From assembly GCF_001447785.1 (NCBI RefSeq), contig NW_015170912.1:186001-250000 (forward strand): 64,000 bases of DNA, read 5' to 3'. This document shows, piece by piece, positions 9,105 to 57,517 of this stretch. A program made the position numbers and the translations under genes. Each line of letters starts with the position of its first letter. The first letter of the stretch is position 1. The notes under the pieces are model-generated. The model saw nothing but the letters and a program-made list of their open reading frames with translations. It made no database searches and was not told the DNA's origin. This DNA is from Gekko japonicus (Eukaryota).

Positions 9105-9475
9105 ATAAAATTCATCATATTCTCTGCCACTATGATCCATGAAATCTATCCTTGATGACAAAGAATTTGCTAAATTAGGTCTGGGCAAAATGCACCAGCC
9201 TGTTGGTGAGTCCAAATGTGAGATTCATTATATGGCACTACAAGCAGAAATCAAATCCTCTTCAGAAAGACTCCATCCATGTCTCTGATGATTCCAGTAG
9301 TACAGACGGATAGGTCAAATTTTATTAAATATAGAAAAAGTTATGCTTGAAGGGCTTCACCATGAGTTTAACAAGCTCATAAAACTGAGGCGTTCCTCAC
9401 TGTTTGTTTCATTTCACTTTCAGGTACCAGTTTGGAATCCCCCTTTTGGTCTGTATGTTTAATGGTACAATTCTT

Positions 9476-11963: not shown

Positions 11964-12631
11964 TGTATGAGTCTGGGGTCAGCCTCCCCTGTCGTTTCAC
12001 CTTGAGGGTGAGCTAATTCAGACCTCCAGACAAGTAGCGAGATCCTCTCCTCTCGAGTAGGTCTCCTGTCCCTGGGTTCTCCTCCCGGGATGAAAGGAAG
12101 CTCTCACTGATTGCACCGTCCCACACACTTGCTTTCTCCAAAAGTCAACATATCTTTATTTAAGAGGAGCAAAGATAAAAAAAACACAGCTCCAGAGATA
12201 AAAACACCAGGATAAATAATAATATTCACAAAGACTTAAAACACTGAGGCAATGTGCTGAGTGGCTGAAGGAGTAGTTCTCAAGCCGCTAGAATGGAGAC
12301 GGTCCTGAGCAGAGTGCTGGGAAGTTAGTTATTCTCAACAGAAGGCTGGCAAGGCTACAAGCAGGAGAAAGGAGAATGAAAAGTCTTTTATCAAAGAGCC
12401 ACCTTGGTGGAAGAAAACTTGCTTTTCTCTCCTGAACTGTTGTCTCTGTTCCACTGCCGGCTTGGTCAGTAACGGTGCCTCAATTAGCTACAGCTGCTGC
12501 TTGAACAATTGCCAAGTTTTTGCTTGAACAACTGCCAAGTTTTCTTATATCCTCCCTACAAGGCCCGGATGGTATTTCGCTTCAGAGCCTTAAGGGGGAC
12601 ACACCACAATACCAAATAATACTTCCATACA
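11964..12631 (-). repeat. 3' LTR of the Gmr1-like element (668 bp)
   Basis: 6-bp inverted ends TGTATG/CATACA; G7 PPT adjacent (plus-strand C run 12632-12638); TATA-like element ~12545; AATAAA (plus-strand TTTATT 12155); 23-bp tandem duplication at 12498-12543 in U3. Confidence 0.85.
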
Positions 12632-12804
12632 CCCCCCCACGCAGAAAGCGAGTGACTTAGGTCATTCGCCTTTCTGCGATCAGAACAATGCCTTTGCTGC
12701 ATATATTAAAATCATCTAACAACATACATACAAACCCGCAGTTACATATACATATTCAACTGTAGCCCATAACCTCAAAATCAGCAAAGATGCTCAGCCA
12801 TTTA

Positions 12805-15800
12805 CTATAAATCAGCATGACACCGTGAAAGGGAATCTGCTAGAGTGTTATCCCTCCCTCTAATATGGGTAACTTCGAAAGACATATCTTGCAGAGATAG
12901 TGCCCACCTCAAGATTCTAGAGTTGGTATCCTTCATTCTGTGTATGAATGTTATTGGGCTATGATCTGTCTCTAGACAAAAATGTGTTCCCCTGAGATAT
13001 GTCTTCAATTTGTTTAGCCCCCACACTACCCCCAGAGCTTCTTGCTCCACGACACTATACTTTTGCTCTCTAGGGAGTAACTTTCGACTCAGATAGATCA
13101 CTGGATGGAAACATCCATCGGACTCTTTTTGCATCAGGACGGCCCCTATGCCCGTTCTGCTAGCATCGGTCCTGACCAAGAAAGGCTTAGTATAGTCAGG
13201 TGGCCTAAGGATAGGTGCTTGAACAAGTTTCTCTTTTAGAAGTTCAAAAGCCCGTTGACATTCTGATGACCATGGTACTTTTGCGGGAACGTTTTTCTTA
13301 CATAGGTCAGTTAAGACCGCTGCTAGTCCACTAAAATTAGGGATGAATCTTCTATAAAACCCACAGGCCCCTAGGAAACTCAAAATCTGCTTCTTTGTCA
13401 TGGGAGTGGGCCAGTTAACGATTGCATCTATCTTTACCGCATGTGGTGAAATTTTCCCACCCCCTATTTGGTGGCCCAGGTATATAACAGAAGAGTTGGC
13501 AACTTGACACTTTGATGGCTTTATGGTCAAACCGGCATCTTGAATTCTCTGAAGCACAGTTCTCAGATGTTGTAGATGTTCCTGCCAGTTTGAACTGATG
13601 ACTGCAATATCGTCCTGATATGCTACTGCGTAGTCCAGTCCTCGAAGTATCTTATCCATCAGCCTTTGGAAAGCTTTGCTAGCTGACTTCACTCCAAATG
13701 GGAGTACATTAAAACAATACTGACCCATAAAACAAGAGAAGGAACTTCTTTCTTTAGCTCTCTCTGTAAGTGGCACTTGCCAGTATCCTGAAGTGAGGTC
13801 AAAAGTGGAGATGTATGTTGCACTAGCCAGTCTTTCTATCACTTCCTCAATGTATGGTGAAGGGTACTGGTCCATCTTACTTATCTTGTTGAGTTTTCTA
13901 TAATCAACACACATGCGATATTGAGTTGGGTCATCTTCATTCAACTTCTTCTTGGTAACAATGACAAGATTGCTAGACCACTCAGAAGTGCATGGCTCTA
14001 TTACTCCCATTTGTAGCATTTTTTCTATTTCTGTCTTGATTATTTCCCTCATAGGCCCCCTCACAGGATACGGATTGGACTTAACTGGTGGATGGTCTCC
14101 TGTGTCTATATCATGGACAACTAGGGAGGTTCTTCCAGGACAGTTGGTAAATGTGCTTTCAAATTTTTTCAACAGCTCCCTTAGTTGTTCTTGCTGTTGG
14201 CATGACAGGGCCTCATTGATGGGGATCTCAGACATTCCAGTTGGCCTTTCTGCTTCTGCAAGAAGATCAGGAACATCAAAGTCCTCTTCTGGCCAGGCCT
14301 CAATTGACATTTGCTGCATTTGACGGGCAACAAATTTTTTTAAGCGGTTAATGTGGGCTACTAGAAGGCCTCTCTCTGGATCTTTAATCTCATAGTTTCC
14401 ATCTCCAAGGCTCTGCATAACTTCGAAAGGTCCCGTCCAATGTACATCTAACTTTCCCACACTCCCAGGGTTCAACAATAGGGCCCACTCTCCCGTCTTC
14501 AGGGTTCTAGATTTAGTTGTTTTGTCAAAATTTGTTTTTTGTTTTTCCCTGGTTTCTGTGAGGGCTTGCTGAGCAGTCTGTTGTATACTTTGTAAAGTCT
14601 GCTGTAGATTGGTGAAATATTCTGATGTCGACTGTGGTACTTCAGGAGCCCAGACTCCTTCCCAGCTTGCCCTCAGTAACTCAATGATTCCTGGCAGTTT
14701 CCTGCCAAACACAAGTTCATTGGGCGTGAAGCCGCCAAGCGAAGGATGCACAGCATCTCTGTACGCACTAACCACAAATGGAACCGCCTCATCCCAATTT
14801 CCGTGATGTTCCAAGCAGAAGGCTTTTAGCATCCGTGTCAGAGTTCCTCCCCACTTTTCTATCTGCCCATGAGATTGTGGGTGATAGGCTACACTGAGTT
14901 GTTGAGTCACTCCTGCCAAATCGTAGAGTTTTTGCATAAGGTTATTTAGATGATCTATCACTGACAATAACTCTCGGAAAACCAAAATTTGCAAAAAACT
15001 CTAACAATGTTCTAGCGACATTTGTTGCAGTAACAGTCCTTAGTGGAATAGCTGCTGGAAAACAAGTTGCCCGGTCTATGATAACAAGAATGAATTTCTT
15101 TCCTGACCTTGTAGGGGGGAAGGGTCCCTGAATGTCCATCTGTATTTCTGCAAAAGGTACTTGCACGATTGGGATCCTTCCTAGTGGCACCTTTACATGA
15201 TCAGATGAGTATCCTACCTTCTGGCATACTTCGCAGGAATTAACATAATCTTTAATGTCTTTACTTATTCCAGGCCAATAAAACGCCGCAGTCACCTTGG
15301 CAAGGGTTCTTTTGAACCCAAGATGCCCAGACAATGGCAGGTCATGGGCAGATCGTAAAACTTCTCCCCTGAAGAGTTTAGGGACCACTAATTGCTTCAC
15401 TGACTGTGACATGGCTGTCTTTCCTTTTGGTAGGTATTCTCTATAAAGGAAACCATTATGCCAATAAATCCTACTGTTTCCAGGTTTCTCCAATGAGGGA
15501 CTCATTTTTCCAGCTGCCTCTCTACATGACTGTAAATCTGGCGATGTCTCTAACAATTCCTTAAAGACTTTAGAATCAGTTTTCATGGATAGCGTCCCAC
15601 TTCCAGTTATAGGAGGAAATTGAACATCATGAGCTAGAGGCTGTAAGACTCCTCCCCCTGTTCCTTGCTCTTCCTCTTCCTCTTCCTGCTGTTGGACTCC
15701 CAGTGGGGGGCTTTCTTTCTGCTGTCCTATTGGCAGCATCTTTCTAGCTCTTGCTGTACTCCTGGTCAGTACTGGAAACTGGTTAATGCAACCTTTTGCT

Positions 15801-16270
15801 TTTAGCATTTTAAAATAAACATCCATCCCAAGTAAAAAGGCGGGATCATCTCCCTGATGTACCAATAATGGGATGGTGTCGGTCCAATTCTCTATAGTAA
15901 CCTTAGCATAGGTAACAGGTTGCTCTTTGGGCTGGGCATCATACGTACGAATATCTACTTTCCCATCTGGTTGTAACCCTAATTCCTGGAAGGTAGTTTC
16001 ACAAATGGATGACATGTCCGCCCCACTATCCCATGTAGCTTTGAGGAGGGCCCTATCTTGTATTCTCACATAAACTGTCCTTTTTTGAGAACACCACTCC
16101 GCTTGTTCTTGACTAATGTAGCATGAAATGGACCTTTTAGGGACAGAAGTCAGATTTATGCGATTTATTCTGGCTCCATTTCTTAGGCCCTGACTCTGTT
16201 GTTGGTTATTAAATTGTACTTCTCTAGCAGGCCAATTTTTACCCCGCCCAGAGTTTTGCATACATACCAT
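12805..16270 (-). pseudogene. Gypsy pol polyprotein PR-INT-RT-RH, frameshifted in the integrase core (~14945-14960)
   Basis: Two long ORFs (14942-16270 and 12805-14994) join at SDR../NNLMQ; otherwise no stops. Confidence 0.88.
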
Positions 16271-17170
16271 CAGAGTCTGATGTACTTCTTTGGCTGGAGC
16301 AGCTGATGCTGTATCTTGAAGCTATATTTGTTGTTGATCTTGACTTGCTGACGACGTTACTGCTTGAGTTGTAATTAGTTGAACATTTGGTTGCTGTGAT
16401 ACATTTTTCTCCACTAGTCTCGGGCATTGATTTCGAATGTGGCCTCGTTGCTTACAGAAGTAACAGACTGGTGGCGCTGATGTATAGCTGGTAGACCCTC
16501 TATGTTCCTGAATACGATCTCTTACTTGATTTGGATGGCGTTGCCTAAAAGTTGGAGCTGGTTGTCTTTGCTGATATTCCCCAGTCCTTGGATACCTTGG
16601 AATCCGATGTGACTGGTCTCCCATAGGCTTGGCACAGGGCATCTCCATCAGGCGGCCTTCTGCAGGTATTGCAAAAGCTGGGCAACCCTCAATGGTTGGT
16701 GCCAGTGTCCTCCTTCCACCATAGGGGTGCAACAAGCTAGTGAGGGGGCTGGGCAGACAAGGCTGGGTGGACAGACTGGAGGTGCCCTGGCTAGGAAGCT
16801 GGGCAGGGCTGGTGGGAGGGCAGGCTGGGGAAAACAGGCCATGAAAGACACCCCCCCATGCAGCTGCAGACAGGTCCCATGGGCCAGGGACAATTCACCA
16901 GCAGCCAGGATCCAAGGAGAGAAATGAGTTGGGGTAGGGGAGAGAGAAAGCAAGAAATAGTGATGGGATGGGGAGGAAGAGAGAGAGAGAAAGAGACAAT
17001 AGATGTGGGGGGATGGAGAAAGAGAAAAACAGAGGGAGACAAAGTAAGAGAAGGAGTGGGGGAAGAGAAGAAGAGTAAGACAGAAAAGGGGTGGTGAGAG
17101 AGGGGAATAAGCAAAGGTGGGGGGATGGGAGGGCTACTTCTGCACTTGTATATTCTAATAGCCAAGTTGG

Positions 17171-24700: not shown

Positions 24701-24871
24701 GCTCTACATTTAAGGACAATATGCCACCTCTCAAGTTTACACCTGTTCATTGCATAGCTTGCACCCGTTCACTAGTGGTCCTGACCCTTTTGGCTGCTGC
24801 TGTGGTACCATCTCTCCCAGCTGCCCTTTTTGTACCAGGGACTGTGATCCTAGCCAATCAGGGATCACATT

Positions 24872-26105
24872 TGTCAGCTATGTTGCCATGGGGGTTGGGG
24901 AGCTCGGTCTGTGTCTGGTTAATTGCTACTGCATTCCTTTCTGTGCTTTTCCTGCTTTGCGCCGAAATGCTTATCTATACAGATGTGCAGGAGGGAGATG
25001 TATTGTCTGGGTTTTTCCTAGGTGCTGTGGGAGAGTGTTGGTTCTCAGCTTTAGCTACCTGTCTCCAAGCTTTATCCCGCGTGCAGGAGGGTGCCTAATT
25101 GGCCAGTGCGCTGGGGGGGGGGGTTGCATACGAATACCCTATATCCTATTATACCCATGGGGCCGCCGCCATTCTTAGCAGTGCTTATGTTACTGCATCT
25201 ATAGCTCTGCAATAAAAGCATTACCATTCCTGAATGCGTGTACTTTGTTGTTGGCTGTGGGTTCTGACATTCTGTTAAGAATCCTCCATTCTCTATCTCC
25301 GCGCATCTCTCCGAAATCGAGATGAGTGACGGAGAGGAAAAACCAATTCCTGAGAAGGACGACTCCGGGGGGGGGGTCCCAACCCCTACCACGACCGGTG
25401 AGGGGACCCCCACGACCCTGTCGATTGTGCCGGTGACTACCACGCTGCTGGTAACTGCAGTTGACGCAGGAGCCGTTCCTAAGACGACATCGACCCTGGT
25501 GTTTCTGACCCCGACAGGGCCGAGGCAGCTGCCCGGCCATGGTTACCGGCAAAGCTCCAACTGGAGCCAGTTTCACCCGGACTCTACTGCAAAGATTTAT
25601 ATGCTCACGCAGGGGCCACCGAGAGACAGCCGATTTGACCGGGGATTTTCCACTGTAGGGAGGTTTCCCCCCTTTGGGGCCCCATTTGAGACGTTGCCCG
25701 GGGCATGGGTGACAGAGAGGACGAAGGCGAGAAGTGGCCATGTGTCCCCGGAGGAGGAACTGGAACTGGCCCAGAGGATGGAGGTGGCAGATCGAGAGAG
25801 AAGGCAACTGCAGCGGACTTTGGAGAACATCATCCAGGCAATCCCACAGCAGGTAATCCAAGCCATCAGGGAGGAGAGGGAGGCCCAACTGGCGGTCCCA
25901 GCAGGGCAGGTTGCCCCTCCGGCCCCGCCGCCGCAGCTGCCCCGGCCTGATGACGCCCCACAACCGGGCCTGCCCGATGTACCAGTTCCAGCGCCACGTC
26001 CTGGCAGTCTGAGAGAACGGACGATACCCCGCCTGAAAGACCGCATTGAAGGCACCTTTGATGGGAACCCGGAGGAACTCTCCTACTTCATGGAGAGTTT
26101 CCTTC
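24872..26105 (+). mobile_element. Tf1/sushi-type Gypsy retrotransposon: 5' LTR (24872-25269), self-priming PBS and truncated gag
   Basis: TGTCAG...CTGACA LTR with TATA ~25140-25153 and AATAAA at 25211. PBS 25272-25282 is complementary to 25171-25181. gag ORF from 25322 has a coiled coil and the FDGNPEELSYF capsid-start motif. Confidence 0.85.
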
Positions 26106-41743: not shown

Positions 41744-42989
41744 ATCAACAATAGATCCAGATGAGTATTGTAATACAGGATGCTAAAGATGACCCTTCCC
41801 ATCTTATTCATTAAAATATATATTTATTTATTCCAAATACTTATATGCCCATCTTTCTCCTGAGCAACTCAGGACCCCTTCTATACCCCTATTAGTCCTG
41901 GTTAGATTTGCCACCTTTTTTGGCCCTGATCCCGTGCCTCTTTAGCACCACATTGACATAGAAATCTGTTTATCTTCATGCCAAGCAAAGTTTCACCTGC
42001 TTAGTTCCTCCATGTTTAGCTGCCATTAAAGGCAGATCAGGAAAGTGTCAACTTCATTTATAACCTAGTACAGGTACCTCTATATCAGATCTCCTCAATG
42101 GGATGGGTAACCTTGCTGCTTCCAGCCAAAAGCAAAACAAAAGATCTGAAGCTCCATAGAGAGAAGTAAACAAAATATGTATTAAATATTCATTGCACTT
42201 TTCATGCAAGATCAGAGCTAAAACTAATAATGCCATGTTAAGCAGACAATTGACTTCAATGACATATAAATGTCTAGATTCCGGTACTTGGGAGCATTGT
42301 AATTCATGCCTTCACAGTCAGTTCAGCTTCACTATAGGCTTGCTAGGAAGGTGGCCAATACACAGAGGAAATTGTGATGAAACAAGACTGCCAGCTTGGC
42401 TTTGATAGTAGTGGGATGAAATCTGGGAGGGATGCAAGGTGAATGCTACTGCAGAAGTCACAACATGTGGAGGTCCTGTACTATTTCAACACAGCACTCC
42501 CTGTGAGAGCAGATTACATTACTGATGCTTAGAACCTTGGCTGTAGTGCTGAAGTCACAAGTGTGGCTGCTATGCTTCAAATAAGCAACATAAAGTTCCT
42601 TTGGCAACAGATTTCAGGTGTCAAACTGGTTGCTTTAAAATAGATGTGCAGAACATAACCCACCCCACTTAATGAAGATTGTGTAGGAAGTCAAGATCTG
42701 GTGCTTCTGAACAATGTTGAAGCAGCACTTATTTTATCCCCCCCTCTGGTACATATACCAATGCAGACAGTCCACAGGGCCATCCAATCATGCACACAAT
42801 CTCCCTGCATTTTGAAATGGGAGGAAATTAAGCAAATGAAGCAACCAAACATTCTGCGGAGAGCACTCATTTTTAAAGGTGTAATAAAGACCTTCAAAAA
42901 TCATGTTGATATATTTACAGGTGTCATTCAAAAGACTACCTGTGGGACAAATCTCCACTCACTATTTAGAGTAAATTAGTTAGTGTCAG

Positions 42990-43479
42990 GAATCTCACTC
43001 CCAGTCGTTGTGGGGACGGTTTTCTCCTCTTCTTCGCTCATCTCAGCGGGAGAGATGCGTGAAGGAGGGAAAGGTAGATTCCTAACAGAATGTCAGGACC
43101 CACAGTCAAACAACGGAGCACACACTTCCAAGAAGGTTATACTTTATTGTTAGAACTATGGTTGCAGGAACATGTTCACTGTTAGGAATAACTAATACAT
43201 TGGCAAGCATCAAGAGGTATAGTGCATTCAAACTAACCCCCCCTCCCACCGGTGGGCCAATCGGTCTGACTCCCGTGGACGGGAAGGAAACCCCAGAACA
43301 GTTAGAGCCTGGGAAACGAAACTAGTCCCACGGTTAATTAATGGGGAGGCACTACATAGGCAAGACTACAAGGTCAGAGATAATGAAGGAAGAAGCAGGG
43401 AAAGGAATGTGGCATCCACTGGTACACAGGTCATGCATGCGAACCTGCAGCTATAAACAATATGGCAGCCTAGCTGACA
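42990..43479 (-). mobile_element. Second Tf1/sushi-type element: LTR (43091-43479), self-priming PBS and first gag codons
   Basis: TGTCAG/CTGACA ends. On the minus strand the LTR starts TGTCAGCTAGGCTGCCAT (vs TGTCAGCTATGTTGCCAT at 24872). gag starts MSEEEEKTVPTTTGSE at 43041 (vs MSDGEEKP..PTTTGEG). Confidence 0.85.
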
Positions 43480-49607: not shown

Positions 49608-55467
<5,860 letters not shown>

Positions 55468-55964: not shown

Positions 55965-57517
55965 GAAAGAGATCTTGGGGTTATAAGCAGATAGCTCAAT
56001 GAAAATGTCAGCCCATTTCACAGCAGTGAAAAGGGCAAATTCCATGCTGGGGATTAGTAGGAAAGCGATTAGGAATAAATGGGCAAATATTGTAATGCCC
56101 TTGTACAGAGCCATGAAGCTGCCTCATTTTGAATACTTTGTACAGATCTTGTTGCTGTATCTCAAAAAGAACATTGCAGAGCTGGAAAAAATATAGAAGA
56201 AGGCAACCAAGATGATCCAAGAGGTTGGAGCGCTTTTTGCTATGAGGAAAGGCCAGAGAGTCTGGGATTTCTAAGTTTAGAGAGAAGAAGGCTAGGGAGG
56301 GGACATGATAAAGGTTTATAAAATTATGCAGGGGGTGGAGAAAGTGGACAAAGGGAGATTTTTCTCCCTTTCCCATAATACTAGAACTCAGAGCACCCAA
56401 TGAAGTTGATGGGCGGTAGTTTGTGACAGAAAAAAGCCCTTATTTTCTCAATGAGTAATTAAATTATGGAATTCTCTGCCAGTGAAGGTAGTGATGGCCA
56501 TGTGCATAGATGGTTTTAAAAGGGGATTAAGCAGATTCATGGAGGATAGGCCTATTAGTGCCTATTAGGCATGGCTAGTAAGGGGAGCCACCATGTAAAC
56601 ATCTGAATACCAGTACTAGAAGCCAAAAAAGGAGGGGGGGAAGCCAGTGTACAATGCAGGAAACAAAAAAGAATAACACACAAGCAAGTAAGCAAGTATA
56701 TAATGATCAAATAAGCATAACAGCAAGTATAATATAAATCAAATAAACATAACAAGTATGATATAAATCAATAGGCCAAAGTGCAATAATAAATCATAAT
56801 AGAAGCAAGTCACAGTCTTTCCATGTGTCTACTCCAGCATAGAAGCAATATCAAAGTCCAAATTGGAGTGCAATTCATCAAATTTTCTGAGCCATAAAAA
56901 GCCGACGCGTAATCCAGATGCCTGTTGCCGCATTTCGATTAATTCTTATTCAAGCATGGCTGTAATGGGACCCAGTCTCAAAAGCTGGCATACCCCCACC
57001 TGGACCAGGGGGCTGGCAACTCTATGCAAAAAGTGTAACCAGCCCCCCATAAAAGCTCTCCATTACAGCCATGCTTGAATAAGAATTAATCGAAATGCGG
57101 CAACAGGCATCCGGATTACGCGGCGGCTTTTTATGGCTCAGAAAATTTGATGAATTGCACTCCAATTTGGACTTTGATATTGCTTCTATGCTGGAGTAGA
57201 CACATGGAAAGACTGTGACTTGCTTCTATTATGATTTATTATTGCACTTTGGCCTATTGATTTATATCATACTTGTTATGTTTATTTGATTTATATTATA
57301 CTTGCTGTTATGCTTATTTGATCATTATATACTTGCTTACTTGCTTGTGCGTTATTATTTTTTGCCAGTGGTGTTCTTTTTTGTTTCCTACCAGTACTAG
57401 AAGACAACATCAGGGGGGGAGGTCTTGGCCTCTGTGCTCTGACTGCTGGCCCTCCAGTGCAACAGGATGCTGGCCTAGATGGACTGGTCTGATCCATCAG
57501 GGCATTTCTTATGTTCT
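55965..57517 (+). mobile_element. CR1 LINE 3' fragment interrupted by the insertion at 56623-57388
   Basis: AVKRANSMLGI..IVMPLYRAM..PHFEYFVQ..ELEK; the 3' UTR resumes at 57404 and ends CTGATCCATCAGGGCATTTCTTATGTTCT. Confidence 0.85.
56623..57388. repeat. TSD-flanked insertion: ~310-bp inverted repeat (56658-56968 / 57060-57389) with a locally templated spacer; possibly Penelope-derived
   Basis: 15-bp direct repeat TACCAGTACTAGAAG at 56608 and 57389; near-identical inverted arms; 56992-57063 is the reverse complement of 57850-57921. Confidence 0.9.

What the first reader, a model, noticed from the sequence alone, without database searches (positions are those of the whole stretch)
24872..25282. 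Self-priming (tRNA-independent) LTR retrotransposon signature
Seen: 2 nt after the LTR end (CTGACA, 25269) there is no TGG-type tRNA PBS but CTGTTAAGAAT (25272-25282). This pairs over 11 bp, with one G-U, with ATTCTTAGCAG (25171-25181), which lies ~20-30 nt after the TATA region, at the predicted transcript 5' end. Established: S. pombe Tf1 primes reverse transcription with the first 11 nt of its own RNA, and vertebrate Tf1/sushi elements are proposed to do the same. Inference: a squamate self-priming family.
Basis: partly seen in the sequence, partly recalled or inferred. Interest (0 to 1): 0.7.

Follow-up and report, generated by a model that had tools for sequence, protein, structure and literature searches.

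The report
Self-priming gypsy retrotransposon family in gecko
This is the broken front end of an abundant gecko jumping gene whose primer site pairs with a stretch of its own terminal repeat, so it likely starts copying itself with its own RNA instead of a host tRNA, a trick already described for its probable group (Tf1/sushi).

Summary
The LTR (24872-25269) is followed after 2 nt by 11 bases that pair with 25171-25181; 8 of 1000 shuffles match this anywhere in the LTR, 1 of 1000 near that spot. A second, diverged copy in the window (minus strand, LTR 43479-43091), not mentioned in the finding, keeps a perfect 11-bp duplex through a compensatory change and folds into the same 112-nt hairpin (z -3.6 and -5.9). 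In both copies the primer starts 31-32 nt after a TATA, on an initiator motif. Public reads show a high-copy family in which the G-U is almost private to this copy. The copy is cut off inside gag at 26093, so no pol tree was possible. Gag relatives are gecko gene models; their capsid-start motif matches published tuatara and Anolis chromoviruses by eye, and the tuatara element shows the same priming geometry. The transcription start was not demonstrated: RNA reads showed no start pile-up. Verdict: a real, well-supported self-priming signature in a gecko family that very probably belongs to the Tf1/sushi (V-clade) group, where self-priming is already proposed for vertebrates. New member of a known kind.

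The parts
24872..25269 (+). 5' LTR of copy A, 398 nt, TGTCAG...CTGACA
   Evidence: ends marked by loose read ends with many different flanks
25098..25146 (+). Predicted U3 promoter: reversed CCAAT box (ATTGG, 25098), G-run (25113-25123), weak TATA (25140)
   Evidence: all three shared with copy B; function inferred
25169..25175 (+). Initiator-like motif (YYANWYY, consensus recalled) with its A at 25171, the predicted transcription start
   Evidence: match in both copies; motif occurs at 1% of positions in the window
25171..25181 (+). Predicted 11-nt self-primer
25182..25271 (+). 90-nt R-U5 loop folding into a long rod; includes the duplex 25187-25191 with 25266-25270 next to the primer duplex, the stem 25199-25206 with 25253-25260, and AATAAA at 25211-25216
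   Evidence: predicted fold; loop alone z -2.1 (A) and -3.0 (B)
25272..25282 (+). Primer-binding site, no TGG, complementary to 25171-25181
25322..26093 (+). 5' part of gag (Thr-rich start, gecko-restricted block, predicted coiled coil, Pro-rich linker, first residues of the capsid domain at 26057-26092); the element is cut off at 26093, with no pol and no 3' LTR
   Evidence: (loose ends behind 26093 in 10 contigs; depth falls to flank level)
43091..43479 (-). LTR of copy B, 389 nt, same family, diverged (about 54% identity in U3, 74% in R-U5)
43179..43189 (-). Predicted self-primer of copy B (ATTCCTAACAG)
43078..43088 (-). Primer-binding site of copy B (CTGTTAGGAAT), 11 of 11 Watson-Crick pairs with its own primer
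42976..43041 (-). Stub of gag in copy B (21 codons to a stop); likeness to copy A fades within it

Best explanation
This is a 3'-truncated copy (5' LTR, primer site, part of gag) of a high-copy gecko LTR retrotransposon, probably a Tf1/sushi-type chromovirus, whose RNA is predicted to start at 25171, fold its first 11 bases onto the primer site, and would use them as the primer for reverse transcription in place of a tRNA. Shown: the complementarity, its conservation with one compensatory change in a second copy, the LTR ends, the high copy number, the truncation. Predicted: the 112-nt fold and the start at 25171. Inferred from Tf1: after packaging, the element's RNase H would cut between bases 11 and 12, leaving a 3' end on the primer site, from which reverse transcriptase would copy the adjacent LTR end and U5-R into minus-strand strong-stop DNA. 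This copy has no pol and no 3' LTR, so it cannot move by itself.
For: (1) 11-bp duplex beyond chance. (2) Copy B keeps the duplex: primer position 5 changes from U-A to C-G on both sides, position 8 from G-U to A-U; B's primer pairs at -13.8 kcal/mol with its own site and -7.2 with A's. (3) Both copies fold from the predicted start into the same 112-nt rod: z -3.58 and -5.87, 0 of 200 shuffles as good for each. Of 44 pairs in A's fold, 29 are unchanged in B, 5 change on one side, 2 on both sides, 7 break and 1 meets a gap. Among nine 112-nt windows along each copy, the one starting at the primer scores lowest, and U3 windows do not fold unusually. (4) Identity between A and B is 35% in the spacer between TATA and primer and 82%, 74% and 92% in primer, R-U5 and primer site; read loose ends at 25151-25152 show the same variable spacer before a constant primer. 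(5) TATA 31 and 32 nt upstream and an initiator match in both copies. (6) Other copies read A at 25178 (719,984 of 720,593 depth in DNA contigs; 788 of 795, 14 of 14 and 343 of 347 RNA reads), so the family duplex is Watson-Crick there. (7) The capsid-start motif of the window's Gag and of two gecko relatives matches by eye the published tuatara and Anolis chromovirus Gags, not the Anolis Gmr1 or SURL Gags in the same file; by eye the tuatara element has a 12-nt primer site 2 nt after its LTR that pairs with LTR sequence about 27 nt after a TATA-like word (my reading, not that paper's claim). (8) Tf1/sushi elements are described as self-priming in fungi and vertebrates.
Against: The start site is not shown: three RNA runs gave no place where many reads begin, both strands were covered about equally, and U3 was covered as deeply as R, so these reads mostly reflect LTRs inside other transcripts. 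Linked covariation rests on two copies; with two primer differences and one primer-site difference, a chance face-to-face match is not negligible (roughly 6-9% by my count, no call). Crossing A's primer onto B's site costs almost nothing (-11.1 against -11.4) because U-G is tolerated. A competing local hairpin between the LTR end and the primer site is nearly as stable (-9.7 and -13.7). The third duplex of the Tf1 'pretzel' is not in the lowest-energy fold; only short candidates exist. Seven pairs of the inner rod break between the copies. No pol was available, and Pfam, PDB-sequence, Atlas and fold searches gave the Gag no family.
Confidence: 0.87

Rival explanations
1. Self-priming is right, but the family is not Tf1/sushi: it is another gypsy (or other LTR) lineage that reached self-priming separately.
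For: No pol in either copy; no family hit for the Gag; the capsid motif starts at residue 246 here against about 79 in the tuatara and 34 in the Anolis chromovirus. Earlier AI notes of this scan report self-priming signatures in BEL/Pao and copia elements (leads only), and TAR copia elements are predicted to self-prime, so the signature alone does not fix the clade.
Against: By-eye motif match to lepidosaur chromovirus capsid and not to Gmr1 or SURL Gags. LTR ends fit the Sushi motifs at 6 of 7 and 6-7 of 7 positions, and AATAAA lies near the LTR end as described for Sushi, although rGmr1 ends are similar. The seven reptile gypsy lineages listed include Chromovirus.
Confidence: 0.07
2. The complementarity is structural, not priming: the primer site closes a leader hairpin (for packaging, translation or poly(A) control), or pairs mainly with the LTR end, and reverse transcription starts from some other RNA.
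For: The LTR-end/primer-site hairpin is nearly as stable as the primer duplex; AATAAA is largely paired in the rod; no start site shown.
Against: In the full fold from 25171 the primer duplex has pair probabilities 0.93-0.95 for 9 of 11 pairs. The two-sided change falls in the primer duplex, not in a shared pair of the local hairpin. Position (2 nt after CA), length (11) and promoter spacing are those of a primer.
Confidence: 0.04
3. The site binds a host tRNA half or fragment (as some copia elements do) and the LTR match is incidental.
For: Half-tRNA priming exists in other LTR elements. No gecko tRNA set could be searched.
Against: No TGG, so no CCA-end priming. The site differs between copies in step with the LTR sequence, which a fixed host tRNA would not cause. 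No match to either version in a partial human tRNA set (mitochondrial tRNAs and a probe table; weak). No Rfam match in 24800-25400.
Confidence: 0.02

Closest known systems
Vertebrate Tf1/sushi group = V-clade chromoviruses (sushi-ichi of pufferfish, Amn-ichi of Anolis, Amn-ni, Amn-san; tuatara chromovirus-1, AC154075)
   Same: Vertebrate, here lepidosaur, host; TG...CA LTR with AATAAA near its end; primer site 2 nt after the LTR, no TGG, complementary to LTR sequence about 30 nt after a TATA-like word; coiled coil, linker, then the same capsid-start motif in Gag (by eye).
   Different: Much shorter LTR and R-U5 (398 nt, 90-nt loop) than the tuatara element (897-nt LTR, loop of several hundred nt by eye); about 170-210 more residues before the capsid motif, including a block found only in gecko records among those looked up; pol and chromodomain not seen.
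Tf1/Tf2 of Schizosaccharomyces pombe (also Tj1, Tosmo1-3, Tcry1)
   Same: First 11 nt of the RNA complementary to the primer site; a second duplex between R and the LTR end next to it. The Tf1 loop is of similar size (recalled, no call).
   Different: In Tf1 the mechanism is shown by experiment; here it is predicted. The third 'pretzel' duplex is not clearly present; the loop forms one long rod. No sequence likeness to Tf1 was tested.
Mammalian sushi-derived genes (PEG10, RTL/Mart family)
   Same: Described as derived from chromovirus/sushi elements; similar Gag layout (recalled, no call).
   Different: Those are single-copy domesticated genes; this is a dispersed repeat with LTRs.

Membership tests
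Self-primed LTR elements (Tf1 mechanism) | Primer site just after the 5' LTR, not complementary to a tRNA 3' end | tested here: met
   no TGG in either copy; internal tRNA fragments only partly screened
Self-primed LTR elements (Tf1 mechanism) | At least 10-11 nt of the primer site complementary to a segment of the 5' LTR | tested here: met
   11 bp in both copies, one two-sided change; criterion as in PMC6317226
Self-primed LTR elements (Tf1 mechanism) | That segment is the 5' end of the transcript | tested here: inconclusive
   TATA spacing, initiator and conservation step fit; RNA reads show no start pile-up
Self-primed LTR elements (Tf1 mechanism) | Three-duplex 'pretzel' around the primer site | tested here: inconclusive
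   central duplex and R/LTR-end duplex present in both copies; third duplex only as short candidates, e.g. 7 bp at RNA positions 64-70 with 130-136 in A and the matching place in B
Self-primed LTR elements (Tf1 mechanism) | RNase H cut between nt 11 and 12 and extension from that end | not testable with these tools
   needs biochemistry
Tf1/sushi group (V-clade chromoviruses, Ty3/gypsy) | RT-RNaseH-integrase groups with sushi-ichi / Amn-ichi | not testable with these tools
   both copies lack pol; no genome held; no linked pol found
Tf1/sushi group (V-clade chromoviruses, Ty3/gypsy) | Pol order PR-RT-RH-IN with C-terminal chromodomain | not testable with these tools
   no pol
Tf1/sushi group (V-clade chromoviruses, Ty3/gypsy) | Chromovirus-type Gag capsid domain | tested here: inconclusive
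   by-eye motif match to tuatara and Anolis chromovirus Gags; no computed hit in Pfam, PDB, Atlas or fold searches; only about 12 capsid residues are in the window
Tf1/sushi group (V-clade chromoviruses, Ty3/gypsy) | Sushi-type LTR ends and AATAAA close to the 3' end | tested here: met
   6 of 7 at the 5' end in both, 6 of 7 (A) and 7 of 7 (B) at the 3' end against the motifs in PMC3601003; weakly discriminating
Gmr1-like gypsy elements | Gmr1-type Gag and PR-IN-RT-RH order | tested here: inconclusive
   Gag unlike the published Anolis Gmr1 Gag by eye; no DNA likeness to the Gmr1-like element in this window; pol order untestable

The most novel reading that the evidence does not exclude
A gecko-restricted, very abundant LTR lineage with an unusually long Gag front end has self-priming although its pol lies outside Tf1/sushi, that is an independent origin in an amniote, and its 112-nt leader is a two-state switch between the primer duplex and an LTR-end/primer-site hairpin of nearly equal energy.
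Probability: 0.07. Interest if true: 0.55.

Novelty: new member of a known kind. Interest (0 to 1): 0.25.

Why it matters
The mechanism is not new: self-priming was shown in fission-yeast Tf1 and is described as 'implicated' or 'predicted' for vertebrate relatives in the papers read. Searches listed no paper on a gecko self-priming family and no experimental test in a vertebrate, but the key papers (Butler 2001, Piskurek 2009) are not held and repeat libraries could not be searched. The modest value is practical: a compact 112-nt structure in a family with thousands of LTRs gives a large natural data set for covariation and an easy target for start-site mapping, which could move vertebrate self-priming from proposal to test. 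It also means this family would escape control by tRNA fragments that act on tRNA-primed elements (inference).

Tried and rejected
No whole genome is held, so copies could not be counted or aligned genome-wide. Word-based protein searches with the single Gag found nothing; the alignment search for longer proteins found 1 of 7998 scored, a chimeric Gekko japonicus gene model without pol. Viral contigs: 47 pattern matches, none confirmed. Metagenome scan for the LTR-end plus primer-site motif: 3 matches, all chance (no further likeness, no upstream complement). Pfam, PDB-sequence and Atlas searches on the Gag and on capsid pieces of two relatives gave no family. An AlphaFold model of relative P0016 (mean pLDDT 60.5; a confident 48-residue helix and three later helices) matched nothing specific (best Z 4.9, generic coiled coils). 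Run search: no RNA holder listed. Laid RNA reads: no start or end pile-ups and no splice inside the LTR among the listed joints. My idea that the primer duplex blocks the poly(A) signal only at the 5' LTR was rejected: AATAAA is equally paired with or without the primer site. The bacterial promoter scan is irrelevant here. Rfam: no match. A target-site duplication cannot be tested without a 3' LTR. A literature search for the capsid motif gave two unrelated papers. PMC13524379 passages did not bear on this. Earlier findings by place and by sequence: none.

Full report
1. Observation. The sequence is as described. The LTR runs from TGTCAG at 24872 to CTGACA at 25269. After TT come 11 bases (25272-25282) whose best partner in the LTR is 25171-25181, 11 pairs with one G-U. 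Such a duplex arises anywhere in 8 of 1000 shuffled LTRs, near that position in 1 of 1000, and in 19 of 1230 stretches of the window. There is no TGG after the LTR. Laid reads confirm both LTR ends by loose ends with unrelated flanks.

2. A second copy. A BLAST of the region against the window found one other hit, 43189-43018 on the minus strand, 75% identical and beginning exactly at the primer. It is a whole diverged LTR (43479-43091, 389 nt) with primer site and a gag stub. Its primer ATTCCTAACAG pairs 11 of 11 with its own site CTGTTAGGAAT. Against copy A, pair 5 changes on both sides (U-A to C-G) and pair 8 on one (G-U to A-U). Identity is 54% in mid U3, 69% around the CCAAT/G-run/TATA block, 35% in the spacer, then 82%, 74% and 92% in primer, R-U5 and primer site. 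Both copies have a weak TATA 31-32 nt upstream and an initiator-like motif (consensus recalled) centred on the first A. With two copies only, the covariation is supportive, not conclusive.

3. Fold. From the predicted start both copies form the same 112-nt rod: the primer duplex, a 5-6 bp duplex between R and the LTR's terminal bases, then an R-U5 stem (z -3.58 and -5.87, 0 of 200 shuffles each). Of 44 pairs in A, 29 are the same in B, 5 change on one side, 2 on both, 7 break, 1 meets a gap; the breaks cluster in the inner stem around AATAAA. Without primer and primer site the loop still scores z -2.1 and -3.0 (6 and 1 of 200 shuffles as good). The third duplex of the Tf1 'pretzel' (definition from PMC10085805) appears only as short candidates outside the best fold. 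A local hairpin between the LTR end and the primer site is almost as stable as the primer duplex, but in the whole fold the primer duplex dominates.

4. The family. Four public runs of one coded organism were laid at 80% likeness. In DNA contigs the LTR has summed depth of 168,000 to 1,306,000 against about 50-60 in the flanks and 3,000 to 31,000 in gag. The tool warns that this is no copy number, but it points to a family of thousands of LTRs, most without the inner part. Position 25178 reads A in nearly all other copies, so the G-U is close to private to this copy. Loose ends at 25151-25152 show several different spacers before the same primer, with both versions of position 5; their partner primer sites are not shown, and 321 further differences were not listed. 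Ten contigs leave this locus behind 26093, where depth falls to flank level: the copy is cut off there. RNA reads (3378, 141 and 1462 laid) cover both strands about equally, cover U3 as deeply as R, and show no pile-up of starts, so the start site is untested.

5. The protein. The frame from Met 25322 gives about 257 codons before the break. A full HMMER search found 38 relatives; 20 of the 38 were looked up and all 20 are Gekko kuhli gene models; a further hit is Gekko japonicus. None carries pol. No library named the family. The supplement of PMC3670739 prints lepidosaur elements. By eye, the last codons in the window and the continuing stretches in relatives P0016 and P0040 follow the capsid-start pattern of the tuatara and Anolis chromovirus Gags and not that of the Anolis Gmr1 or SURL Gags. 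No alignment with those printed sequences was computed. Also by eye, the tuatara element has a 12-nt site 2 nt after its LTR that is complementary to LTR sequence about 27 nt after a TATA-like word. The gecko Gag differs in having its capsid motif at residue 246 rather than about 79 or 34.

6. Mechanism. Shown: complementarity, its conservation, LTR ends, abundance, truncation. Predicted: fold and start. Inferred from Tf1, where the first 11 bases pair with the primer site and RNase H cuts between bases 11 and 12 (PMC7175516): the same cut and extension here. Because plus-strand synthesis would copy the self-primer back into the primer site, primer and site should change together, as seen (inference). 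Confidence 0.87; rivals are another clade (0.07), a purely structural hairpin (0.04) and a tRNA fragment (0.02).

7. Known or new. [quoted passage not shown] The group equals the GyDB fungi/vertebrate cluster (PMC10085805), whose V-clade includes an Anolis element (PMC2774666), and chromoviruses are listed for reptile genomes (PMC3670739). It works like Tf1; it is probably a member of Tf1/sushi, but the defining pol features could not be tested. Earlier AI notes on self-priming BEL/Pao and copia elements were used only as a warning that the signature does not fix the clade; no splice is needed here, since the primer is contiguous.

8. What was read. Passages only: PMC2864245, PMC4340606, PMC6317226, PMC4600332, PMC3601003, PMC7175516, PMC2774666, PMC10085805, PMC3670739, PMC13524379. 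Supplements: PMC3670739 file 3, a term search and part 1 of 7 (62, 66, 69); PMC7428014, a term search of 6 files, one further file too large to read. Not seen: Butler 2001 (not held), Piskurek 2009 and the Levin papers (reference lists and citing text only); they may already describe the lizard case. Repeat libraries were not available.

9. Verdict. Real and well supported, a new member of a known kind. Interest 0.25.

Noticed in passing
window 12630-16620, minus strand (3' LTR probably from about 12630 downwards): A separate gypsy element with Gmr1-like order (zinc knuckle, protease, integrase, RT, RNase H) in two long frames, a purine tract and a probable 3' LTR; its 5' end seems lost. Unrelated to the finding's LTR.
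   Followed up: partly
window 25282 to 25247 (table 5c): A joint that leaves exactly at the last base of the primer site and returns to U5 with 28 other letters between, in one DNA contig set and 18 RNA reads. A junction at that base is where a copy of the self-primer would end, so it may be a trace of aberrant strand transfer; it may also be one rearranged copy.
   Followed up: no
window 25322-26093 and 43041-42976: Both copies in the window keep the 5' LTR and primer site but break off early in gag; whether such stubs are a common class in this family is unknown.
   Followed up: no
window about 25565-25650: A conserved Gag block before the coiled coil, found only in gecko records among those looked up and without any family match.
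   Followed up: partly
proteins P0009 and P0040: Gene models in which this Gag front end is joined to RNA polymerase I subunit RPA1 (Gekko kuhli) or to a coiled-coil protein (Gekko japonicus); probably annotation chimeras, exonisation not excluded.
   Followed up: no
window 24917-24941: Some family copies carry a 25-nt tandem duplication in U3 (joint seen in DNA contigs and in all three RNA runs).
   Followed up: no
window 51537-52178, plus strand: Open frame with two mitochondrial-carrier repeats; a retrocopy or a long exon.
   Followed up: no
window 56664-57364: 305-nt inverted repeat, 99% complementary, 91 nt apart; and a 94-nt exact direct repeat at 9451/9580. Young insertions or assembly artefacts.
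   Followed up: no
window 52548-52619, minus strand: tRNA-Ala-like call inside a repeated unit, probably a tRNA-derived SINE.
   Followed up: no
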